A stretch of DNA of 38,924 nucleotides. Origin: Octopus sinensis (lineage: Eukaryota). The notes below the pieces were generated by a model. That model ran no database searches. It was not told where the DNA came from and saw only the letters and a list, made by a program, of their open reading frames with translations. The translations under genes and the position numbers were made by a program. Positions 851 to 38,358 of this stretch are shown piece by piece; within the stretch, counting starts at the first letter, position 1; every line of letters starts with the position of its first letter. The stretch covers positions 1-38,924 of the forward strand of contig NW_021833467.1 of assembly GCF_006345805.1 (NCBI RefSeq), read 5' to 3'.

Positions 851-2809
851 AATAATAACATACAATAATATACAATAATATACAATAAAATATTCAATAT
901 ACAATCAACACTAGTCCATTTACAAGTGAGGCACTGAGCTACTTACACATTATAACACTGAGGCTTTTCAACCACTTGTCAATCCTCATCATCGCTTGTG
1001 TACGTGTACTGCACCATAGCCCATGCTTGCTTTAAAATCAAGTTATGCTCAAAGTTGGCGTCACCCGGCCACGAGCGATATTCCTCTTTTAATCCCCCAG
1101 CCTATGTAACATGCGCAACGTTATGAACTCCACAGCTATCTGCGGAGGTCATTCGGGTAACCGTGCGAAGGCCAAAGGTAAACCCTTGTAGTGTTCTTCT
1201 ATTACCTTTTCCACCACTCCCCCTCTATAACAGAAGACCAGCAGTTCTTCCTCCTCCGGGTCCGAGGTAATCAATTCTGCCGTTGGCGGCACACTTCTTA
1301 CCAATTGTGTCTAAGCCAACCCCCACCAGTGGCACGACCCCCCACTCCACACACCGATGAGGCTCCATGGCTCCGATTGTCAGCAATATCCCGTTTCTCC
1401 TCTTCCTCTTTTTTCCTTTTGACTGTGGGAGGGTACATCCCCTCCGTGACCAGGACATGTGCTTCCCTTCCCTCATTCCCAGAATCCTTCGGTGAGCACC
1501 CATTATTACTCACCTTCTTCCTTTTGCGGCTCTTCTTTCAGGCATCCTCTGTCTCCTCGGCCGCCTTCATTCCTTCTTCTACAGAGGTCTCCGTCAACCG
1601 CTCCAGGACTTTGCTTTGCCGTTGAGGACAGTTCTTTTTTTATATGGCCAGGCTCCAGGCACCGATGACACTTGGGGGAGGGGGCTCCTTCAAGCATCAC
1701 CGGATTCTTCGACCCGCCCATTCTTAAAAAGTCTGGAAATACCAGACTTTCGGCTGACTGGATCTAGAGGGTCAAAACGGCATTTGACATCTCCCAGTCA
1801 GCCGCAGGCAGAATATTTACATTGAAGAGCTTGGTGCTAGCGCCACGAAGACCCCGGCGGATAGTATCTCCTATCCACTCGGGCTCAGCACCGGGTGGAA
1901 AGCCGCAAACCCAAGCCCTCGTCAACTTCTTCCCACAATAAGCGGGAAGAAACAAAATGTCCTTGCCTTCCAGGAGCTGGCTCGCAAATTCCCAATCCAT
2001 TTCTGGGGAGTCAAACAGCAACCACACGGTTGCATATTTGACCCTCCGAGTGATAAACTTAATAGCTGGCTTAAATTCTGCCATCTCTCTTTCGATTATA
2101 TTTTTTCAAATTGGCAATGGCGTCGAGGATCCTAGAGTAGGTCCTCAAAACCACCGTCTTACTTTCAAGTTCTTTTAATCATCTTTTGGGTGGTATAAAT
2201 TCCCACTCCACCAAATTTCCATTGTTCTTTGCCATGTTTCTTTTTAAAAAAAGTCCAAAAAACACCTCATAAAATACAAAATAATTAAGGAAAAAGAAGG
2301 AAGAGAAAAAAGTTCAAACAAAAAAGAAAAAATTAATAAAGAGTCGTTTTTTAAATAAAAGAGGGGTGAAGAGAGAGCAGCAGTTCAAAACACTGCAAAG
2401 GCCACTCGGTACTCCAGGTCAAAATTTTAACGCAAATCATTCCAATTTTCTTCTCATAGGTAATCCTTACAGGAACAATATTGTTGAAATTTTTTCTAAA
2501 AATTCGCAGAGTTATTCCTGGACAAACACGATTCTCAAACAAAATTTTGCGGTAGGATACGCCCACAAAAACAATAATTTTCACAGTTAAGTGAAAAAAT
2601 ATTCACTCAGCTACAGGTAGACTAGAATCCAGTGAGGACTTCTTGTTTGTAAACAACAATTGTGGCGGACAACATGCCCCCACTAGACCCCCAAAAATGT
2701 CTTACCTTACAATTGAGTTTCAAATATCTTCAATTTAAGACGGCTTCAAAAACACGTCTTTACTGCTTCAGTATCAAACACAACTCTGATTCGCACATGC
2801 TCAATGAGA
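851..2809 (-). mobile_element. ORF1-only L1/Tx1-like non-LTR element (HAL1-like)
   Basis: 5' UTR ~2809-2236, decayed ORF1 2235->979, ~75-bp 3' UTR, then a (TATTATTGTA)n-type tail at ~851-905. No endonuclease or RT motifs are seen. Confidence 0.6.
979..2235 (-). pseudogene. LINE ORF1 (gag-like, zinc knuckle) with stops and frameshifts
   Basis: Pieces: MAKNNGNLVEWEF..., MAEFKPAIKFITRRVKYATVW...VCGFPP, the knuckle PKCHRCLEPGHIKKE, a K/E-rich linker, and C-terminal ...LKQAWAMVQYTYTSDDED* (stop 979-981). Confidence 0.65.
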
Positions 2810-5642: not shown

Positions 5643-6501
5643 TCCATATATATATAACTGAAATGCGTTTTTACAGCTTGGATTGCTTTCAATGCCACTA
5701 CATCCCGTCCGATTCGCTCCAAAATTTACAGGGACATGTAGAAAGAAGTGACGATGCTCGTGGGCTACCTTAGAAATCCCTAGCTTAAAAGGTGTGGTTG
5801 CTAGGGTCCATCTTCCTCACTCACGCTATTTCCTCCTTTCCCTCTCTTACTTCCCTTCATTAATAACTTTGAGAATGCCACTCCCGTTATTTAATGTATT
5901 CCCCTCAACTCCCTTTCACTTTCCCTTTATAAGTTCGTCAGGCGGCTTTCTTTGATGTATCTGTTTGCATTCATAGGGAGAATTATCATCGCTACCAACA
6001 ACACACAATCATGAGAACAAATATTATGAATCAGATATTCTTGCGTTCATTTATATGTGTGTGTGTGTGTGTTCTATATATAAATATGTATATATAATGT
6101 ATATGTGTGTGTGTTCTATATATAAATATGTATATATAATGTATGTGTGTGTGTGTGTGTTCTATATATAAATATGTATATATAATGTATATATACAAAG
6201 TGTATATATCTTTATGTATATTAAACTTTATCATACGTTTTCATAGTTATATATATTTTTAAACAAATTATAAATATAATTTAATAATTTTTATTTTCAA
6301 TTTAAATAATTTACATTTTTCAATTTTATATTTTATATATTTTATATATTATATATTTTTTTAATGTTTTTGTTTTTGGTTTTTCACTGTTTGATTTGCC
6401 TATTAGTGGTTTTATCCCCAATTTAATTTATACAGATATATACCTCATTTGTATACATTTGTATACATTTGTATATATAATGCGTGCACACACACACACA
6501 C

Positions 6502-14443: not shown

Positions 14444-14700
14444 TTGCAGCGTAGAAGGTGTTTGTAAGCCATTTAAGAAACACAAAAACCGTTAAATTCA
14501 CTTCAACATTTAAATTTAATTTGCCAAAATATTTTCGTCGCTTTGAGACCGCGACCTGTTCACTGACAAAAATATCGTGCTAACAGGTCGCGGTCTCAAA
14601 GCGACGAAAATATTTTGACAAATTTAATTTAAATGTTGAAGTGAATCTAACGGTTTTTGTGTGTTTCTTAAATGGCTTATAAACACCTTCAACGCTGCAA
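14444..14700. repeat. Fold-back element: ~117-bp inverted arms with a 21-nt spacer
   Basis: 14444-14560 is a near-perfect reverse complement of 14582-14700. Confidence 0.95.
14520..14570 (-). ncRNA. Minimal hammerhead with swapped G3-C8 core
   Basis: tttgtca-GTGAACA-g-gtcgc-ggtctcaaa-gcgac-GAAA-atat-TT-tggcaaa. Confidence 0.6.
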
Positions 14701-15805: not shown

Positions 15806-16174
15806 AACATTGAATAATATGGGTTCAAAAAAGTTTTTTACATAATTGTCACATTGAATATTATGAATTCAAAAATGTTTTTTTATACATAATTGTCACA
15901 TTACATGTATAAATATAGTGTTTGGTAACAGAGAAATTCAATAGTGTGATGAGAATATTTGGAAAAATTGGCAGAAAAGAATAAAACAAATATATTATTG
16001 GAAATTTGGTTGCGTTAATTATTGGTTGTCGCAAATTGTCACATTACATGTATATATATACAGCCTTTGGTAGAAAGGACATGTTAAAGACACAAGGAAG
16101 TGCAATAGTTTGGTGAGAAAATTTGTAATATTGCCAGAAAAAATGGATATTTTATACATCTCAGAATATTTTGA

Positions 16175-16287
16175 GTTGAAGGCGAGAATTTGTTTTTACT
16201 GACCTGTTGGCTTTAGCAGAAAAGTTGAATTGAGAGAAAAAAATGTTGTACCCAACAGGTCAGTAAAAACAAATTCTCGCCTTCAAC
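16175..16287. repeat. Perfect 36-bp inverted repeat with a 41-nt spacer
   Basis: gttgaaggcgagaatttgtttttactgacctgttgg (16175-16210) and its reverse complement (16252-16287). Confidence 0.95.
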
Positions 16288-16316
16288 ACACACACGCACA
16301 CACACACACACACACA

Positions 16317-16738
16317 TATATATAAATAAACGCAATGAATATCTGATTCATAATATTTGTTCTCATGATTGTGTGGTGTTTGTAGCGATGATAATTCTCC
16401 CTATGACTGCCGACAGATACATCAAAGAAAGCCGTCTGACGACCTTATAAAGGGAAAGTGAAAGGGAGTTGAGGGGAATACATTAAATAACGGGAGTGGA
16501 CATTGTCAACGTTATGAATGAAGGGGAGTAAGAGAGGGAAAGGAGGAAATAACGTGAGTGAGGATGATGGCCCCTAGCAACCACACCTTTTAAGATAGGG
16601 ATTTCTAAGGTAGCCCACGAGCATCATCATCTCATTCTACATGTCCCTTTAAACTTTGGAGCGAATAGGACGGGTCGTAGTGGCATTGAAAGCAACCCAA
16701 GGGGTAAAAACGCATTTCAGTTTTATATATAGAGAAGA
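16317..16738 (-). mobile_element. Helitron 5' segment (copy at 26473-26895; inverted paralog at 5643-6055)
   Basis: Minus strand starts A|TCTTCTCTATATATAAAACTGAAATGCG. Confidence 0.7.
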
Positions 16739-16749
16739 TATATATAAAT

Positions 16750-17015
16750 GAATCAAATAAACGTCCAAGGCTGTGAAAGATTTCAGAACATTTATAGAGA
16801 GGTCTTCCAGCTGTTCCAGGGATATTTTATATATCCTTTCATCGAAGACGGTGTGAGAAAATGGTTAAGCAATAGTTATTCTAGAATAACTATTGCTTAA
16901 CCATCTTCTCGCACCGTCTCCGATGAAGAGATACATAAATATCCCGGAAACAGCTGTAACGTCTTCTCTTTAGAAATGTTCTTAAATCTTTCTTAGCCTT
17001 GCATCTTTATTTCCT
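16750..17015. repeat. Spacerless palindrome of a PLE-type terminal repeat with HHR-like motifs in both arms (copy ~26907-27170)
   Basis: Perfect 44-bp palindrome at 16861-16904 with diverged outer arms. The right arm reads gtct-CCGATGA-agagata-cataaa-tatcccg-GAAA-cagctg-TA. Confidence 0.8.
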
Positions 17016-19939: not shown

Positions 19940-22900
19940 GTTCTATATCCTGGTATTGGATATATAATTTAACGAATCTGTTTACACGACGCAATACGAT
20001 TACTATTACATGAGACTCGACGCTCTCTGCCAACGGATCATAGGGAAATGCTTACCAATCAATTGTTCACAATCAATTGCTTACGACTAGACTGTTCTCC
20101 ATGTAATGGAAATGTGTCAGACCACTTTTAGTCACTTGTAATGTTGTCAGAATCTTTCCACAGCATATCCCCTTTATAGAATTAGTCTCCCCTAAATTCT
20201 CCACTTGAGAATTAAAGTCACTCAGAGTTTTAATATCTCTTATGCTTAGGGCTCAATTCTTGTTTCCGTTCTTTTCGTTTTCAGGTGCTAGAACGTGTAA
20301 TTGCAAATTGTTTCTGTGCTGGTACCTCAAACGTGTCGTGCAATACTTTCATGAGAAATTCACTTCTTTTGTCTGATTTTTCCTTGAATCAGGTTTTAAG
20401 TTGGTTAATAAGTCTTTTATGTTCGATAATTGTTTTTACCTTTTACCAGGAATATCATTCTTGCAATTTATTTAACAATTGTACCATCCTCCCAGCCTTG
20501 TTTAATATATGTATAGGTCTTTAATAAAGTTTGTCAGCTAACTTGAAGAATTTTGAAATATTATTCCTTTTTTTTTTATTTTCACTCGGTATCGGCTGAT
20601 CAAAGATGGATCTGATTATTCTAACAAACATCAAATATCTTTGTAACCAGAGATGTTTGCTTTCTACGTTTATGCACTTCAGACCGTGTTGAAAAACATT
20701 CCCCAACAACGAAGTGACATGAAACCTTAAGTGGTTTTGGCCACGGGTGCCATTTTGTGACGGGTGTATTATGAGCTATCACTATATCTTCAATGTTACA
20801 GTCCGTTGTTGGCCAGTATACCTAACTTCTCATTAACGATTTCATTATTGAAATCCCTTTGACTCAATATGAAATTCCTTTAGTAATTGCTTTTGTAGTG
20901 TGGCTGGCACTACGACTCTTTGTGCATACATCAGCACATTGTCACACCTTGTGATAGGCTCGAATATCTTTTATCTCTTTTACCCTTTTGCATTTCTTTC
21001 ATTTTTTAGTGAATATATCGTTTCCCAATTGTAATTTTATATCTTGTAAGGTAAATAGCAGTTCACGCATGGAGTTATACCGTTTGCTTTTAATTTCATT
21101 TTCTATTCGCAAAGTAGCAATCACGGTATCTTCAAATGGTTCAGCATTTTCTGAAATCTGTCTTGATAAAGAATTACCGTGTCCTAATTATTTAGATGGG
21201 ATATACTCTATCTTAAATTCATAGTTTAATGATACAGTACCCCAGCGTTGCAGCCTATTAGCAGTACGGCTAGATCTTTATTTCTTTTACTCGTATACTG
21301 ATAATAACGGACGATGATCTGTCTGTATTCAAAAACGTCTGCCGTGTAAAAATCTATGCTATTTTTTAAGCCAAAAATAATTACAAGAGCCTCTTTTTTG
21401 ATTTGGCTGTGAGTTTTTTCTGCTGATATCAAGAACCACCGCCTTCCTGTTACCATCTTTTTATTTATGTAGCATTACTGCGCCAATACAGTATTCAGAG
21501 GCATCTGAAGTTACAACATTCTCCGCTACAGAATCGAAGCGTGCTAACAACAAATCAGATGTTAATATTTTAAAATTTCGTCGAATTCCCTTTGACAATT
21601 TTCAGAGCAATTTCAATTGACATTTTTTAAATACATAATCTACTGTAACGCTTACCCTATGCATATTTAGAATATAATTTTGGTAATAATTTGCTTGTCT
21701 CCAAAGCAATCATGTAAGGCCGTCATATTTGTCGGAGGGTCATGTATTTAATTGCGTCTGCCTTCAACGGATCTGGTCCTCGTCCATTTCTTTCAATTTT
21801 ATTTTCGGTAATAAAAAATTTCACGCTTTCTTTTTCAATGTAATCCCTAATTTTTTCGAACATATATATTACTTGCTCTACATGGTGATCCCGTGATTCG
21901 CATTTAATGAGTATATCATCCAGATATGGAAATGCAAATTTACTATCGCTAACACTGCATCCATAAGCTGTTAAAAAATCGGTGTGACATTAAAGACATA
22001 TAATAACCTGTTGTATATATATATATATATGCGTTAAGTTTTAGGTATTTATAGCATTCATCGTCTACGCTAATATGTAGGCACGCGTCGGAGACATCCA
22101 ATTAAGAAAATACCTTGTGGAAAGTTTTAAGACACTCATTTAAACCAGTGGAAAAAATCAGCATACACTCTGATTTTGTTTATTTGTTTCTAATGCTGCA
22201 AAAGCTTATCCGTTCCAACGATGCAAAAGTTACAGTTCGTTTATATTTAAATACCGGTTTGGCATTTACTTTTACTTGGAACTTCGTTTTCGTTGTGATG
22301 CTCAGATCTAATTTATCAGAAAGAACTTCAAGAAAAATCTTTTAAAATTATTTCTACAAATCGTCTGACGATTCATTTGTATTGGCAAGAAAATCATTCA
22401 CATTTTTACTGAAAAGATTTATGGGGAGTTCCCATAAGTTAAACAATTCTATTCAGTGTTCCGAATAAATTTGTGATATCTTTGGTTTTTATGGTTTTCC
22501 TACGAAATGGGACGTGATTTATCATTACACCATTAAAATGTAATTATTTTCCTGAAACACCACCTACAATTTTCGAAATGTCTTTTAATCTAGGAATTCT
22601 GTTTTTTTCTATATATCTGTGTTAATTATCGAGATATAACTGCCTTTATCTAGTTGCAACTTTACGTCCACAAATTTCCTTTGAGGCTGTTCGTTTTTTG
22701 GTCACCGATAACCTGTTTTCGTGTTTTCTTTCTGTTGAAATGTTTTCCAGGTTTTTTCTACAGTGTGATTGTTTATGATCTCTCTTGCCACATTTGACTC
22801 CTTTTATATTTTTAAACGGGCAATTACTTTTAAAATGTTGACCACCGCCCCATAAGATTATTCGATCTTGACATTTTTTCTCTTATTTCTTATCCGTGAC

Positions 22901-24139
22901 GCTGGAGACACTGGAATATGAGAGCAATCTCTTTCTTCAATTTCGGGCGTCGCTTTCTTCATTTTTTTCTGCGTTGTCTTTCCTGACATTCTTCTGCTTC
23001 TGTCTGTAGAGTTACTTTTTGTCCAGTTCTAATTTTGTTGACATCCGTGAACATATATCTCCATCTTTGCTTGCAGTTAGGCCTTAAACCAAAAATATAA
23101 AATTGAACATCATCTTAATTCATATAATTTGAATTATTTACACTTTCCGTTAACATCCTCGGCACAGGTGACGAAATCTTCATGTTTTTGGACAAAATAT
23201 AAAAACTGTCCTCAAAGTATTTAGCAGAGAACTTCTTTCACTGAAACGTTTAGATAAAATTTCGTATTTCGGATTTTAAACGGGCAGTTACTTTTAAAAT
23301 GTAGACCACAACATGGACTCCTTCTTGACATTTTTTGTCTTATTTCTGGTCCGTTACGGTGGAGACACTGGAATATGAGAGCAATCTTTTTCTTCATTTT
23401 TTTCTGCGTCGAGTCCCCTGGCATTTTTCTGCTTCTGTCTGTAGAGTTAATTTTTATCCAGTTCTAAATCATTTGATAAAATATTAATAGTTTTTATTGA
23501 AACAAATCTCACCTGACTTCTTCGGCAGAATATAATTACTATATATTTTTTGTATTTGGCAAAAGGATACCTGTCTTACAAGGTAGTCGTACTATTTTCC
23601 CTCTCAGATCAATTTTTAAATTCTTCTTTGAGAATTTCTTCGTATCTTCGAAATTATGCAGAGAAGGTAATCCCATCTTCTGGATTATAACTGAATACTT
23701 CAATAGAGATTGCTACGCTGTCTGGCAAGTTTAACATTAATTCCAGCAACTATTGGTTTCGTTGTTGTTGCTGTTGTAGTTGCTCTTGTTGTTGTTACAA
23801 TTGTTGCTGTTGCAACTGCACCACAGACGCCAATAAGCCTTCTATCTTAAACGATTTTTCTTTGGTTTCATACCCATCCCAAACAAATTTAAACATCCAA
23901 CGCAAACTTCGAAGAACTCTTCGCCACTTTTATACCCTGGTTTGGAACATATGATTTTAGTAATCAGGGGGAAAGAAAGTGTTTACACGATGCGACACGA
24001 TTACCCAACGCTCTCTGTCAATGGCTCACAGTGAACTATTTACCAATTAATTGATGAAGACTCGACAGTTGTCTATTTAATAGGAATATGTCAGTACCCT
24101 TCTAGTCAATTGGAAGGTGGTTGGAATCCTTCCACAACA
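19940..24139 (-). mobile_element. Gypsy LTR retrotransposon, old and decayed
   Basis: LTRs at 19940-20165 and 23927-24139 (starting TGCTGTGGAA and TGTTGTGGAA). PBS TGGCGAAGAG, PPT TAAAGGGGATA, TSD ATAC at 19936-19939 and 24140-24143. Coding motifs: gag knuckle CGLHFKSNCPFK, protease LQLDKGSYISII, RT PYLDDILI, RNase H SQIKKEALVIIF. Confidence 0.9.
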
Positions 24140-26428: not shown

Positions 26429-26481
<53 letters not shown>

Positions 26482-27298
26482 AATGAACGCAATGAATATC
26501 TGATTCATAATATTTGTTCTCATGATTGTGTGGTGTTTGTAGCGATGATAATTCTCCCTATGACTGCCGACAGATACATCAAAGAAAGCCGTCTGACGAC
26601 CTTATAAAGGGAAAGTGAAAGGGAGTTGAGGGGAATACATTAAATAACGGGAGTGGACATTGTCAACGTTATGAATGAAGGGGAGTAAGAGAGGGAAAGG
26701 AGGAAATAACGTGAGTGAGGATGATGGCCCCTAGCAACCACACCTTTTAAGATAGGGATTTCTAAGGTAGCCCACGAGCATCGTCACCTCATTCTACATG
26801 TCCCTTTAAACTTTGGAGCGAATAGGACGGGTCGTAGTGGCATTGAAAGCAACCCAAGGGGTAAAAACGCATTTCAGTTTTATATATAGAGAAGATATAT
26901 ATAAATGAATCAAATAAACGTCCAAGGCTGTGAAAGATTTCAGAACATTTATAGAGAGGTCTTCCAGCTGTTCCAGGGATATTTTATATATCCTTTCATC
27001 GAAGACGGTGTGAGAAAATGGTTAAGCAATAGTTATTCTAGAATACCTATTGCTTAACCATCTTCTCGCACCGTCTCCGATGAAGAGATACATAAATATC
27101 CCGGAAACAGCTGTAACGTCTTCTCTTTAGAAATGTTCTTAAATCTTCTTAGCCTTGCATCTTTATTTCCTTCTGTTAATTTTATACATATAGATGTTAA
27201 AATATGACCAACGTTGGACTCCTCATTTGCATGTCCATAGCACTTACTCAGCTTTCACTCACACATTTGGTTCTCCTTGACAACATTACATCTCATAT

Positions 27299-30109: not shown

Positions 30110-33100
30110 GTTCTATATCCTGGTATTGGATATATAATTTAACGAAGCTGTTTACACGACGCAATACGATTACTATTACATGAGACTCGACGCTCTCTGC
30201 CAACGGATCATAGGGAAATGCTTACCAATCAATTGTTCACAATCAATTGCTTACGACTAGACAGTTCTCCATGTAATGGAAATGTGTCAGACCACTTTTA
30301 GTCACTTGTAATGTTGTCAGAATCTTTCCACAGCATATCCCCTTTATAGAATTAGTCTCCCCTAAATTCTCCACTTGAGAATTAAAGTCACTCAGAGTTT
30401 TAATATCTCTTATGCTTAGGGCTCAATTCTTGTTTCCGTTCTTTTCGTTTTCAGGTGCTAGAACGTGTAATTGCAAATTGTTTCTGTGCTGGTACCTCAA
30501 ACGTGTCGTGCAATACTTTCATGAGAAATTCACTTCTTTTGTCTGATTTTTCCTTGAATCAGGTTTTAAGTTGGTTAATAAGTCTTTTATGTTCGATAAT
30601 TGTTTTTACCTTTTACCAGGAATATCATTCTTGCAATTTATATAACAATTGTACCATCCTCCCAGCCTTGTTTAATATATGTATAGTTCTTTAATAAAGT
30701 TTGTCAGCTAACTTGAAGAATTTTGAAATATTATTCCTTTTTTTTTTATTTTCACTCGGTATCGGCTGATCAAAGATGGATCTGATTATTCTAACAAACA
30801 TCAAATATCTTTGTAACCAGAGATGTTTGCTTTCTACATTTATGCACTTCAGACCGTGTTGAAAAACATTCCCCAACAACGAAGTGACATGAAACCTTAA
30901 GTGGTTTTGGCCACGGGTGCCATTTTGTGACGGGTGTATTATGAGCTATCACTATATCTTCAATGTTACAGTCCGTTGTTGGCCAGTATACCTAACTTCT
31001 CATTAACGATTTCATTATTGAAATCCCTTTGACTCAATATGAAATTCCTTTAGTAATTGCTTTTGTAGTGTGGCTGGCACTACGACTCTTTGTGCATACA
31101 TCAGCACATTGTCACACCTTGTGATAGGCTCGAATATCTTTTATCTCTTTTACCCTTTTGCATTTCTTTCATTTTTTAATGAATATATCGTTTCCCAATT
31201 GTAATTTTATATCTTGTAAGGTAAATAGCAGTTCACGCATGGAGTTATACCGTTTGCTTTTAATTTCATTTTCTATTCGCAAAGTAGCAATCACGGTATC
31301 TTCAAATGGTTCAGCATTTTCTGAAATCGGTCTTGATAAACAATTACCGTGTCCTAATTATTTAGATGGTATATACTCTATCTTAAATTCATAGTTTAAT
31401 GATACAGTACCCCAGCGTTGCAGCCTATTAGCAGTACGGCTAGATCTTTATTTCTTTTACTCTTGTACTGATAATAACGGACGATGATCTGTCTGTATTC
31501 AAAAACTTCTGCCGTGTAAAAATCTATGCAATTTTTTACGGCAAAAATAATTACAAGAGCCTCTTTTTTGATTTGGCTGTAATATTTTCTGCTGATATCA
31601 AGAACCACCGCCTTCATGTTACCATCTTTTTATTTATGTAGCATTACTGCGCCGATACAGTATTCAGAGGCATCTGAAGTTACAACATTCTCCGCTACAG
31701 AATCGAAGCGTGCTAACAACAAATCAGATGTTAATATTTTAAAATTTCGTCGAATTCCCTTTGACAATTTTCAGAGCAATTTCAATTTACCTTTTTTAAA
31801 TACATAATCTACAGTAACACTTACCCTATGCATATTTAGAATATGATTTTGGTCATAATTTGCTTGTCTCCAAAGCAATCATGTAAGGTCGTCATATTTG
31901 TCGGAGGGGGCATGTATTTAATTGCGTCTGCCTTCAACGGATCTGGTCCTCGTCCATTTCTTTCAATTTTATTTTCGGTAATAAAAAAATTCACGCTTTC
32001 TTTTTCAATATAATCCCTAATTTTTTCGAACATATATATTACTTGCTCTACATGGTGATCCCGTGATTCGCATTTAATGAGTATATCATCCAGATATGGA
32101 AATGCAAATTTACTATCGCTAACACTGCATCCATAAGCTGTTGAAAAATCGGTGTGACATTAAAGACATATAATAACCTGTTGTATATATATATATATAT
32201 ATGCGTTAAGTTTTAGGTATTTATAGCATTCATCGTCTACGCTAATATGTAGGTACGCGTCGGAGACATCCAATTAAGAAAATACCTTGTGGAAAGTTTT
32301 AAGACACTCATTTAAACCAGTGGAAAAAATCAGCATACACTCTGATTTTGTTTATTTGTTTCTAACGCTGCAAAAGCTTATCTGTTCCAACGATGCAAAA
32401 GTTACAGTTTGTTTATATTTAAATACCGGTTTGGCATTTACTTTTACTTGGAACTTCGTTTTCGTTGTGATGCTGAGATCTAATTTATCAGAAAGAACTT
32501 CAAGAAAAATCTTTTAAAATTATTTCTACAAATCGTCTGACGATTCATTTGTATTGGCAAGAAAATCATTCACATTTTTACTGAAAAGATTTATGGGGAG
32601 TTCCCATAAGTTAAACAATTCTATTCAGTGTTCCGAATAAATTTGTGATATCTTTGGTTTTTAAGGTTTTCCTACGAAATGGGACGTGATTTATCATTAC
32701 ACCATTAAAATGTAATTATTTTCCTGAAACACCACCTACAATTTTCGAAATGTCTTTTAATCTAGGAATTCTGTTTTTTTCTATGTATCTGTGTTAATTA
32801 TCGAGATATAACTGCCTTTATCTAGTTGCAACTTTACGTCCACAAATTTCCTTTGAGGCTGTTCGTTTTTTGGTCACCGATAACCTGTTTTCGTGTTTTC
32901 TTTCTGTTGAAATGTTTTCCAGGTTTTTTCTACAGTGTGATTGTTTATGATCTCTCTTGCCACATTTGACTCCTTTTATATTTTTAAACGGGCAATTACT
33001 TTTAAAATGTTGACCACCGCACCCATAAGATTAATTCGATCTTGACATTTTTTCTCTTATTTCTTATCCGTGACGCTGGAGACACTGGAATATGAGAGCA

Positions 33101-34337
33101 ATCTCTTTCTTCAATTTCGGGCGTCGCTTTCTTCATTTTTTTCTGCGTTGTCTTTCCTGACATTCTTCTGCTTCTGTCTGTAGAGTTACTTTTTGTCCAG
33201 TTCTAATTTTGTTGACATCCGTGAACATATATCTCCATCTTTGCTTGCAGTTAGGCCTTAAACCAAAAATATAAAATTGAACATCATCTTAATTCATATA
33301 ATTTGAATTATTTACACTTTCCGTTAACAGCCTCGGCACAGGTGACGAAATCTTCATGTTTTTGGACAAAATATAAAAACTGTCCTCAAGTATTTAGCAG
33401 AGAACTTCTTTCACTGAAACGTTTAGATAAAATTTCGTATTTCGGATTTTAAACGGGCAGTTACTTTTAAAATGTAGACCACAACATGGACTCCTTCTTG
33501 ACATTTTTTGTCTTATATCTGGTCCGTTACGGTGGAGACACTGGAATATGAGAGCAATCTTTTTCTTCATTTTTTTCTGCGTCGAGTCCCCTGGCATTCT
33601 TCTGCTTCTGTCTGAAGAGTTAATTTTCGTCCAGTTCTAAATCAATTGATAAAATGTTAATAGTTTTTATTGTAACAAATCTCACCTGACTTCATGGGCA
33701 GAATATAATTACTACATTGTTTGTATTTGGCAAGGGATACCTGTCTTACAAAGTAGTCGTACTATTTTTCCTCTCAGATCAATTTTTAAATTCTTCTTTG
33801 AGAATTTCTTCGTATCTTCGAAATTATGCAGAGAAGGTAATCCCATCTTCTGGATTATAACTGAATACTTCAATAGAGATTGCTACGCTGTCTGGCAAGT
33901 TCACACTTGAAGTATTTTTTAGACTTCTTTAACATTAATTCCAGCAACTATTGGTTTCGTTGTTGTTGCTGTTGTAGTTGCTCTTGTTGTTGTTACAATT
34001 GTTGCTGTTGCAACTGCACCACAGACGCCAATAAGCCTTCTATCTTAAACGATTTTTCTTTGGTTTCATACCCATCCCAAACAAATTTAAACATCCAACG
34101 CAAACTTCGAAGAACTCTTCGCCACTTTTATACCCTGGTTTGGAACATATGATTTTAGTAATCAGGGGGAAAGAAAGTGTTTACACGATGCGACACGATT
34201 ACCCAACGCTCTCTGTCAATGGCTCACAGTGAACTATTTACCAATTAATTGATGAAGACTCGACAGTTGTCTATTTAATAGGAATATGTCAGTACCCTTC
34301 TAGTCAATTGGAAGGTGGTTGGAATCCTTCCACAACA
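30110..34337 (-). mobile_element. Gypsy LTR retrotransposon, duplicate copy
   Basis: LTRs at 30110-30335 and 34125-34337. TSD ATAC at 30106-30109 and 34338-34341. Confidence 0.9.
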
Positions 34338-36661: not shown

Positions 36662-36708
<47 letters not shown>

Positions 36709-37620
36709 CTCGCTCTGATACTGAGTTGAGTTGATGCCTTCTAGTATCTCAAAATTCAATATATAATCATTTATGATTATAGTATTCTACGCTGAAGAGA
36801 ATCTACGTTATCTACGTCCGTAGATAACTTAAAATTGTATGATAGATTGCCGTCAATTCATTCTCTCTTACCTGTTTGTGTCTGCCTTCCAATTGCTGTT
36901 TTTACTGAGATCTCCCTTTTTAGTAGAAGAAATAGCTATAACTCTTTGACTGCTATTTCTAAATTCAGTATGTGGTAAGGCAATTCGTTGCTAAACCCTT
37001 TATTGCTTAGTATTACTTAAATTTTCCTCGAATGAGGCTTTTACATGCCGAAGACTACATGGTGTAATTGATAATTATTCCAAATTAATTAATTTCACCC
37101 CTCATTATTACGGATAACCATATTTTATCTCAGTAGATAACCACAGCATCTTGTTTTGGCTACACGCGGGTGGGAAGGGGCTGGTGACACAATCTTTTCA
37201 TTCAAACATTGAGTTTGGTGATACTAGTTGCGGATTCTAGCTCGCTCTGATACTGAGTTGAGTTGGTGCCTTCTAGTATCTCAAAATTCAATATATAATC
37301 ATTTATGATTATAGTATTCTACGCTGAAGAGAAAGGAAGTTTTGGTGAGATAGAATTATTTAATATTTAATATTTAATATTTAATTCTTATGCTTTCCTA
37401 AAAACTTGATTTCGAAACGTACGTCCGTAGATAACTTAAAATTGTATGATAGATTGCCGTCAATTCATTCTCTCTTACCTGTTTGTGTCTGCCTTCCAAT
37501 TGCTGTTTTTACTGAGATCTCCCTTTTTAGTAGAAGAAATAGCTATAACTCTTTGACTGCTATTTCTAAATTCGGTATGTGGTAAGGCAATTCGTTGCTA
37601 AACCCTTTATTGCTTAGTAT
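36709..37620 (+). mobile_element. Retrozyme-like / PLE pLTR direct-repeat element
   Basis: Direct repeats at 36709-37013 and 37241-37620 around a 227-bp spacer, flanked by (TA)n on both sides. Non-coding, with an HHR in the repeat. Confidence 0.7.
37318..37431 (+). ncRNA. Intact type-I hammerhead ribozyme with long stem II
   Basis: tctacg-CTGAAGA-gaaa...83 nt hairpin...tttc-GAAA-cgtacg-TC-cgtaga. GUC triplet, predicted cleavage after 37425. Confidence 0.85.
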
Positions 37621-37633
37621 ATATATATATATA

Positions 37634-38112
37634 TATTCTTGTATTTAGGAATGGTCATTTTGTCAGTTTAGCCAATAAAAACTCACGCACTATATATTTG
37701 GTGTTACTTTGATTCAGCTTTATTTATTTTTGACATTAATCTTAATCTTCTTTCGAACGTATATAAACAGGAGATACAAATATTACAGGCACTCCCTCCC
37801 ACATACACACACACTTTAACTAAATATAGACACATATAGAGGTATACACAGGCGCAAGTAAAGACACATACAATAGAAATACAAAATACAAAATGGCTGA
37901 CCGTTAGTAAGAAGAGACACACAAATATAAATGAAGAAAGCAATGAACCACTGACGAAGTCACAGGAGCGTGACGAAAGATCTCTGGCCGAAATAAGAGT
38001 AAGATTGATGTGAAAAATAAATAACGCTGAAGCAAAGTAACACCAAATATATAGTGCGTGTGTTTTTTATTGGCTAAACTGGCAATATGACCATTCCGAA
38101 ATACAACAAATA
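37634..38112. repeat. Fold-back element: ~120-bp imperfect inverted arms with a ~230-bp spacer
   Basis: 37634-37757 vs reverse complement of 37988-38112, e.g. gcactatatatttggtgttactttg / caaagtaacaccaaatatatagtgc. Confidence 0.9.
37948..37987 (+). ncRNA. Minimal type-I hammerhead ribozyme
   Basis: cca-CTGACGA-a-gtcac-aggagc-gtgac-GAAA-gatc-TC-tgg, with palindromic AGATCT in stem III. Confidence 0.8.
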
Positions 38113-38358
38113 TCTGTTTCAACACACGATTTCACATCAAAATTCTTGCAAAACAAATACATAAACGTGCATATATATATATATGTTTGCGTTTGTTTGA
38201 TGTGTGACTATAGTTTTTGTATTATATTCCTTTATTCCCACTTGTTTCCCCATTCTGATATTCCACGTTATTTTTCTTGTCTTAATATATCTTCTTTTCC
38301 TGCATTTATCGTCTTCTTCACAACTTTTTCTCTACATTCATCTTGTTCATCATTTTCG

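What the first reader, a model, noticed from the sequence alone, without database searches (positions are those of the whole stretch)
36709..37620. Retrozyme-like element: HHR-bearing direct repeats inserted in (TA)n
Two near-identical direct repeats (305 and 380 bp) flank a 227-bp non-coding spacer. Repeat 2 has a complete HHR. In repeat 1 the stem II/GAAA part is replaced by a short locally templated patch (ctgaagagaatctacgttatctacgtccgtaga). With two intact HHRs a transcript would release a ~607-nt monomer that could circularise, as for retrozymes mobilised by PLEs. This may be an undescribed cephalopod retrozyme family, or a tandem PLE pLTR.
Basis: partly seen in the sequence, partly recalled or inferred. 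Interest (0 to 1): 0.75.

Follow-up and report, generated by a model that had tools for sequence, protein, structure and literature searches.

The report
Octopus hammerhead-ribozyme retroelement, one ribozyme broken
This is a recently inserted, one-and-a-half-unit copy of a small non-coding jumping element that carries a self-cutting RNA and probably borrows its enzymes from Penelope-like transposons; such elements are known in other animals, and this copy has probably lost the ability to release an RNA circle.

Summary
Observation confirmed. 36709-37620 is repeat (305) - spacer (227) - repeat (380): 1.6 turns of a 607-bp, 34%-GC non-coding unit between two (TA)n runs. The repeats differ at 2 of 294 shared bases. 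Repeat 2 holds a full type I hammerhead with canonical animal geometry: 6-bp helix I, 4-bp helix II base, palindromic helix III, unpaired U1.7. Helix II is extended to 83 nt, and Rfam misses the motif. The spacer pairs with the sequence after the cut site in a rod of about 60 bp (0 of 400 shuffles). In repeat 1 an 11-nt fold-back patch replaces 86 nt and locks the leftover cut site in a 9-bp hairpin, so this locus probably makes no circle. The host is octopus-like (one protein hit); no PLE ORF was found in the window. Best reading: a non-autonomous Penelope-like element, i.e. an animal non-LTR retrozyme, inserted by a PLE endonuclease/RT into (TA)n. Copy number, cleavage and circles could not be tested. 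New member of a known kind.

The parts
36698..36708 (.). Left (TA)n run, following a (CA)n tract; left half of the presumed target
   Evidence: Sequence; junction context
36709..37013 (+). Repeat 1: 5'-truncated partial unit (305 bp) with a broken hammerhead
36792..36798 (+). Orphan CUGAAGA core of repeat 1; no GAAAC partner left in this repeat
   Evidence: one GAAAC in the whole insertion, at 37414
36802..36812 (+). 11-nt templated patch replacing 86 nt (most of helix II, GAAA and the start of helix III); built from inverted copies of the bases after the cut site
   Evidence: 10-nt inverted match, 23 of 20000 random
36808..36827 (+). 9-bp hairpin created by the patch; holds repeat 1's leftover GUC cut site (36816-36818) at its tip
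   Evidence: 8 of the 9 pairs at p>=0.995
37014..37240 (+). Single-copy part of the unit (227 bp), non-coding; 37127-37205 is one strand of the rod
37241..37620 (+). Repeat 2 (380 bp); with the spacer it makes one full 607-bp unit (37014-37620)
37318..37431 (+). Intact type I hammerhead: helix I 6 bp, core 37324-37330, GAAA 37414-37417, palindromic helix III 37417-37424, predicted cut after C37425; unpaired U1.7 follows at 37432
37331..37413 (+). Extended helix II (83 nt): 4-bp base, 2x2 purine internal loop ending in A37409, then an A/U-rich arm
   Evidence: -16.2 kcal/mol; base pairs p 0.93-0.97; 18 of 1000 shuffles; arms alone 306 of 1000
37357..37385 (+). Four copies of a 7-bp unit (TATTTAA) at the tip of helix II
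37442..37518 (+). Second strand of the rod, pairing with 37127-37205 and prolonging helix I
   Evidence: 61 pairs at p>0.5; z -4.9, 0 of 400
37618..37636 (.). Right (TA)n run; its first three bases also match the unit (3-nt microhomology at the 3' end)

Best explanation
The insertion is a recent, 5'-truncated 1.6-mer of a 607-nt non-coding retroelement that depends on a Penelope-like element (PLE): an animal non-LTR retrozyme. SHOWN by computation: the A-B-A layout with a 607 period, one intact type I hammerhead on the + strand, a long rod that places the ribozyme at its end, no coding capacity, (TA)n on both sides, and the lesion in repeat 1. INFERRED: (1) a source locus with two or more intact units is transcribed; (2) the hammerheads cut at GUC, freeing 607-nt monomers whose ends are held together by helix I and the rod and can be ligated to circles; (3) a PLE GIY-YIG endonuclease nicks (TA)n and its RT starts inside the unit, 195 nt after the cut site; (4) RT copies more than one unit length from a circle or a multimer and stops, giving the partial tandem (pseudo-LTR); (5) during that copying or in later break repair, helix II and GAAA of the second-copied ribozyme were lost and replaced by two rounds of fold-back synthesis. 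With one ribozyme left and the other cut site locked in a hairpin, this copy can at most cut a read-through transcript once: a probable dead end.
For: Layout and 2 of 294 differences. Hammerhead beyond chance; the active fold costs only 1.1 kcal/mol over the minimum for the whole insertion. Geometry 6/4/2 bp plus palindrome is what PMC4209133 calls the canonical metazoan type I motif. Unpaired U1.7 and an A at the 3' side of the helix II internal loop match the contact described in PMC11875169; that it forms here is inference. GC 34%, below the <45-50% given for animal retrozymes in PMC7229834. Rod: z -4.9, 0 of 400 shuffles, while two wrong-partner controls gave 63 and 68 of 400. Circular fold z -6.0 on + against -3.8 on -; G-U pairs 8 on + against 2 on - in an unbiased alignment. 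Both R1/R2 differences leave a C-G pair intact in R2 (read from the helices). Octopus Naiad and Hydra PLEs are listed with (TA)n preference; O. vulgaris has 31 recently active PLE families; PLE RT initiates internally at AT-rich targets in vitro. A second PLE-type hammerhead element abuts the same (TA)n run. No ORF homologue.
Against: Only one copy is in hand, so neither a family nor a multimeric source is shown. No cleavage, expression or circle data. Pairing across the unit junction, which would show that the spacer start is the natural continuation of the repeat end, is only borderline (50-53 of 1000 shuffles). A folding z of -6 is not rare in this window: 5 of 26 windows of 607 nt reached it (8 shuffles each). 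The G-U asymmetry is weak (8 of 10, one-sided p about 0.055, hand calculation) and the rod also scores on the - strand (z -3.9). Helix III is formed with p only 0.04 in the monomer, and the arms of the long helix II are no more stable than shuffles; PMC11875169 notes that extending stem II can inhibit activity. Rfam gives no hammerhead match. 607 nt exceeds the 170-400 nt given for invertebrate retrozymes. No sequence link to a named PLE was found in the one library I could search.
Confidence: 0.7

Rival explanations
1. Terminus of a coding PLE. The insertion is two successive 5'-truncated copies of the 3' end of an autonomous PLE, joined by template switching; no free 607-nt unit exists.
For: 5' truncation, partial tandems and hammerheads near the 3' end are standard for PLEs. 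The rod could equally be a 3'-UTR structure. The junction helix is borderline.
Against: In the usual partial tandem the downstream copy is full length with its ORF; here 227 non-coding bases separate the repeats. The ribozyme has canonical geometry, not the minimal form of metazoan PLEs (short helix I, unpaired base before helix II), which the neighbouring element does show. None of 11 short motifs from the two elements (8 from this one) matched the 3' end of a Naiad, Chlamys or Hydra consensus; the 4 occurrences found lay in unrelated contexts.
Confidence: 0.2
2. This locus still releases a monomer, because repeat 2's catalytic strand can also cut repeat 1's leftover GUC site (5-bp helix III, 6-bp helix I) in a double-hammerhead-like fold.
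For: The pairing is sequence-compatible, and the rod can form with repeat 1 while repeat 2's 3' part is not yet made (p 0.71).
Against: That fold costs 11-13 kcal/mol more than the minimum; its helix I has probability 0.0; the patch hairpin holds the site at p>=0.995.
Confidence: 0.05
3. A miniature LTR element (TRIM or plant-type LTR retrozyme) with true LTRs.
For: Direct repeats flank a short non-coding interior.
Against: Read: the ends are not TG...CA, the spacer does not begin with a primer-binding TGG, no purine tract adjoins repeat 2 and no 4-6 bp TSD is visible. The ribozyme is type I, whereas LTR retrozymes carry type III. The TG...CA and TGG rules are recalled.
Confidence: 0.02
4. The hammerhead is a chance motif in a foldback DNA repeat, allowed by the long gap between core and GAAA.
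For: No Rfam hit; many foldback elements in this window.
Against: The shuffle test allowed the same long gap and gave 1 of 200 and 0 of 200. Features not asked for by the descriptor are present: G10.1-C11.1, palindromic helix III, U1.7. Rfam also misses the compact hammerhead next door.
Confidence: 0.03

Closest known systems
Animal non-LTR retrozymes (Cervera and de la Pena 2020, PMC7229834; Li et al. 2026, bioRxiv 10.64898/2026.07.22.740005)
   Same: Non-coding, low-GC tandem unit with a canonical type I hammerhead; highly self-paired predicted circle with the ribozyme free to fold; no LTR, PBS or PPT; PLEs present in the host lineage.
   Different: Unit of 607 nt (170-400 nt for invertebrates in PMC7229834; 51-972 bp in Li et al.); helix II of 83 nt; only 1.6 units with one intact ribozyme, so it fails the 'active' definition of Li et al.; cephalopods are not mentioned in the parts of these papers that I saw.
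Non-autonomous PLEs and pLTR partial tandems (Craig et al. 2021, PMC8557442: MRC1-type elements; Hydra-1_Obim and octopus Naiads)
   Same: 5'-truncated partial tandem forming a pseudo-LTR, (TA)n target, no readable TSD, sense-strand hammerhead within a few hundred bases of the 3' end.
   Different: No ORF and no sequence match to the consensi searched; the ribozyme differs from Hydra-1_oBim's except for the core; core-to-GAAA span is 83 nt against at most about 53 nt among the 34 motif rows of File S2 (counted by hand).
Minimal hammerheads of metazoan PLEs (Cervera and de la Pena 2014, PMC4209133)
   Same: Type I topology, palindromic weak helix III suited to dimeric cleavage.
   Different: This motif has a 6-bp helix I, a 4-bp helix II base and no unpaired base after A9, i.e. 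canonical rather than minimal. The neighbouring element at 37948-37987 is of the minimal kind.
Plant LTR retrozymes (as summarised)
   Same: Two direct repeats around a non-coding interior; monomer of similar size (about 600-700 nt).
   Different: Type III ribozyme, GC above 55%, PBS/PPT and 4-bp TSD there; none of these here.

Membership tests
Animal non-LTR retrozyme | Type I hammerhead with full core | tested here: met
   Repeat 2; Rfam negative
Animal non-LTR retrozyme | Non-coding unit, GC below about 45-50%, no LTR/PBS/PPT | tested here: met
Animal non-LTR retrozyme | Head-to-tail tandem organisation | tested here: inconclusive
   1.6 units at this locus; junction pairing borderline; no other copy in the window
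Animal non-LTR retrozyme | Two consecutive intact hammerheads ('active' copy, Li et al. 2026) | tested here: not met
   One GAAAC in the insertion; R1 site sequestered. This copy is filed as an inactive derivative, not as an active retrozyme
Animal non-LTR retrozyme | Stable self-paired monomer with ribozyme free to fold | tested here: met
   background z values weaken this
Animal non-LTR retrozyme | Many genomic copies | not testable with these tools
   No animal genome collection; the prokaryotic scan (0 matches) does not bear on it
Animal non-LTR retrozyme | Self-cleavage and circular RNA in vivo | not testable with these tools
   Needs bench work or RNA-seq
Non-autonomous PLE | 5'-truncated partial tandem (pseudo-LTR) | tested here: met
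Non-autonomous PLE | Insertion in AT-rich or microsatellite target | tested here: met
   compare
Non-autonomous PLE | 3'-end similarity to an autonomous PLE | tested here: inconclusive
   Short-motif look-ups in one library were negative; Neptune, Poseidon and Nematis consensi were not available
Autonomous PLE | RT plus GIY-YIG ORF | tested here: not met
   Longest frame inside the element 66 aa, no homologue; no RT or GIY-YIG family among 127 frames
LTR retrozyme / TRIM | Type III hammerhead, PBS, PPT, short TSD | tested here: not met

The most novel reading that the evidence does not exclude
Octopuses carry an abundant, expressed family of about 600-nt ribozyme circles whose hammerhead has a helix II several times longer than search descriptors allow (83 nt against the 7-17 nt core descriptor of PMC8557442), so a whole tier of animal retrozymes and PLE ribozymes has been missed. 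The boldest extension: the fold-back patch in repeat 1, whose inverted copies begin exactly at the first base after the cut site, is a fossil of the PLE reverse transcriptase stalling at the folded ribozyme, and the two A/G differences, both opposite a C in predicted helices, record A-to-I editing of the template RNA.
Probability: 0.25. Interest if true: 0.6.

Novelty: new member of a known kind. Interest (0 to 1): 0.38.

Why it matters
It would extend animal retrozymes to cephalopods, where my searches found no report, and it supports the view that retrozymes are non-autonomous Penelope-like elements: here a retrozyme-type unit shows PLE insertion hallmarks and sits beside a PLE-type element in the same (TA)n run. 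The practical point is that a hammerhead with an 83-nt helix II escapes Rfam and short-spacer descriptors, so counts of genomic ribozymes may be low. The class, the mechanism and the PLE link are already published, and this copy is probably inactive, so the weight is modest.

Tried and rejected
Rfam: no hammerhead family in the window at E<=1 (54 matches, all miRNA/snoRNA models and all below their gathering scores) or in 36700-38200 at E<=10 (6 matches). Uninformative, since the compact neighbour is missed too. Coding link: Pfam on 127 stop-to-stop frames of 62 aa or more gave 1 sub-threshold DUF hit and no RT or endonuclease; low-complexity frames and frames wholly inside the first copy of the 10.2-kb duplication were left out beforehand. 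The 66-aa frame across the ribozyme has no homologue. Empty-site allele: the 10.2-kb tandem duplication ends in the (CA)n tract just left of the element, so it offers no pre-insertion copy. Named PLE partner: short motifs from this element and its neighbour did not match the termini of consensi in the supplement of PMC8557442 (exact matching on line-wrapped text can miss hits); the 3' ends of Naiad_Obim, Naiad_Ovul and Naiad_Omin looked unrelated by eye. Prokaryotic genomes: 0 matches to an 18-nt motif. Pol III promoter: only loose box-like matches, and 10 runs of four or more T on the + strand argue against it. Junction helix as proof of a circular unit: not significant enough. Two type III descriptor hits in the 428-bp dispersed repeat had only 3-bp stems and were set aside. 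Long helix II in print: one search for 'extended stem II' returned 1 unrelated paper, which is a narrow search. Viral and metagenome contigs stayed unchecked.

Full report
Observation. Repeat 1 is 305 bp, the spacer 227 bp and repeat 2 380 bp. The repeats share a 93-bp block and a 201-bp block with one difference each, both A in repeat 1 and G in repeat 2. The 201-bp blocks lie 607 bp apart, so spacer plus repeat 2 is one full unit and the insertion is about 1.6 units. Both outer ends fall directly on (TA)n runs (36698-36708, 37618-37636). At the right end three bases fit both the unit and the run; at the left end there is no shared base. No other copy exists in the window.

The ribozyme. A descriptor scan of both strands found two type I hammerheads in 38.9 kb, one in repeat 2 and one 560 bp further right, plus two weak type III hits that I set aside. 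The repeat 2 motif has the whole core, a G10.1-C11.1 pair, a 6-bp helix I, a 4-bp base of helix II and a palindromic helix III. Motifs of that quality arose in 1 of 200 and 0 of 200 window shuffles under two criteria, with the same long gap allowed. PMC4209133 (parts 1-2 of 4 read) gives 6 bp, 4 bp and a 1-2 bp palindrome-capped helix III as the canonical metazoan form, and a shorter helix I with an unpaired base before helix II as the minimal PLE form; this motif is canonical. Position 1.7 is an unpaired U and the last unpaired base before helix II closes is an A, the pair of residues that PMC11875169 (passages) describes as a rate-enhancing contact; whether it forms through an internal loop here is inference. 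The unusual feature is that helix II runs on for 83 nt, with four 7-bp repeats at its tip. It folds at -16.2 kcal/mol (18 of 1000 shuffles), but its arms alone are unremarkable (306 of 1000). Rfam finds nothing here. Helix III is barely populated in the monomer (p 0.04), though the active fold costs only 1.1 kcal/mol, so activity may need a dimer or protein help.

The unit as RNA. The spacer (37127-37205) pairs with the sequence after the cut site (37442-37518) in a rod with 61 pairs at p>0.5, better than all 400 shuffles, while two wrong-partner controls were not. In the linear monomer from cut site to cut site the two ends are brought together. The circular fold scores z -6.0 on the + strand and -3.8 on the - strand, and G-U pairs favour + by 8 to 2. 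Against over-reading: 5 of 26 background windows fold as well, the rod also scores on the - strand, and pairing across the unit junction is borderline (about 50 of 1000). GC is 34%. The longest frame inside the element is 66 aa with no homologue.

The lesion. In repeat 1, 86 nt from inside helix II to helix III are replaced by 11 nt. The patch consists of two inverted copies of the bases that follow the cut site, each starting at the first base after it; a 10-nt match of this kind occurred in 23 of 20000 random trials. A 4-base self-complementarity between helix III and helix I would let a nascent strand fold back and prime this synthesis, either during reverse transcription or in microhomology-mediated break repair (inference; I cannot tell them apart). 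The patch forms a 9-bp hairpin over the leftover cut site. A fold in which repeat 2's catalytic strand cuts that site costs 11-13 kcal/mol and has no measurable probability. The locus therefore most likely cannot release the monomer.

Host and surroundings. A frame at 1767-2105 hits one protein among 97 candidates, from Octopus sinensis (73% identity, E 6e-46), so the host is probably an octopus; this rests on one hit. No RT or GIY-YIG family was found among 127 filtered frames. A 10.2-kb tandem duplication (98.4%) ends in the (CA)n tract left of the element. Right of the second (TA)n run lies another element, 37637-38170, with a compact hammerhead of the minimal PLE type (unpaired A before a 5-bp helix II, 3-bp helix I, palindromic helix III), inverted arms of 125 bp at 90% identity, and about 60 extra bases on one arm only. 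Inverted copies and one-sided tails are listed PLE features in PMC8557442 (section 6; passages).

Mechanism. PMC7229834 (passages and sections 13, 14, 17; supplement unreadable) shows that tandem low-GC repeats with type I hammerheads in coral, mussel and axolotl yield circular RNAs and proposes PLEs as helpers. The 2026 preprint of Li et al. (parts 1-3 of 5 read; supplements not seen) argues that these elements are non-autonomous PLE derivatives, reports units of 51-972 bp, and found cleavage in only 1 of 9 elements tested. PMC11167929 (parts 1-2 of 4) shows a PLE protein cutting AT-rich DNA and starting reverse transcription inside its RNA, without needing hammerhead cleavage. The supplement of PMC8557442 (parts 1, 2, 24 of 59 and term searches) lists octopus Naiad and Hydra PLEs with (TA)n preference. 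PMC13282606 (passages; supplement term search) counts 31 recently active PLE families in O. vulgaris and does not mention ribozymes. PMC7761336 was seen as passages only. Together these support: source multimer transcribed, cut and possibly circularised; PLE enzyme nicks (TA)n, starts 195 nt past the cut site, copies 1.6 units and stops. Whether the template was a circle or a linear multimer is open. If the repeats were identical at insertion, 2 of 294 differences and the scale quoted in PMC13282606 (0.09 for 25 million years) give roughly one million years, with wide error (hand estimate).

Rivals. A concatemer of two truncated 3' ends of a coding PLE remains possible (0.2) because the unit junction is not proven natural. 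An LTR-type element, a still-active locus and a chance motif are each unlikely.

Novelty. Searches for octopus or cephalopod with hammerhead, retrozyme or Penelope (listings and abstract starts only, apart from the papers named above) returned no description of this family, but the library lacks most subscription papers, I could not search Repbase or Dfam, and the unread supplements of PMC7229834 and the preprint may list cephalopod elements. The class is known, so this is a new member, with a long helix II as its one distinctive trait. Interest 0.38.

Noticed in passing
window 37637-38170: Second hammerhead element sharing the (TA)n run: minimal PLE-type ribozyme at 37948-37987 (cut after 37984), inverted arms 37631-37755 and 37989-38113 (90%), about 60-nt one-sided tail ending at another (TA)n. 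The inverted arm begins about 4 nt after the equivalent of the cut site.
   Followed up: partly
window 16286-36683: Tandem duplication of 10.2 kb at 98.4% identity with (CA)n tracts at all three boundaries; real segmental duplication or uncollapsed haplotypes.
   Followed up: partly
window 5647-6072 (-), 16304-16731, 26461-26888: Dispersed 428-bp repeat between microsatellite or TA runs; holds a CUGACGA core, a perfect 4-bp hairpin and GAAA (16436 onward) but no helix III or I; possibly a decayed ribozyme element.
   Followed up: partly
window 16755-17012, 26912-27168 and 14444-14700: Long foldback elements of about 260 bp, MITE-like; the first gives a sub-threshold MIR821 match in Rfam from its hairpin shape.
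   Followed up: no
window 16172-16290: Imperfect 120-bp palindrome ending exactly at the left boundary of the 10.2-kb duplication.
   Followed up: no
window 1767-2105 (-): Frame 73% identical to an uncharacterised Octopus sinensis protein, in a GC-richer stretch; looks like a retrotransposon ORF1 remnant (impression, no Pfam hit).
   Followed up: partly
window 31839-32159 (-): Frame with a YLDD-like motif suggesting a decayed LTR-retrotransposon RT (recalled motif; no Pfam hit); should have a twin in the first copy of the duplication.
   Followed up: no
window 36734/37266 and 36967/37574: Both differences between the repeats are A versus G at positions opposite a C in predicted helices; ordinary transitions (one at a CpG) explain them, A-to-I editing of the template is a remote alternative.
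   Followed up: partly
window 22810-23032 and 23274-23467 (twins at 32982-33206, 33447-33640): Pair of diverged direct repeats of about 220 bp (76%) inside each copy of the duplication; unexplained.
   Followed up: no
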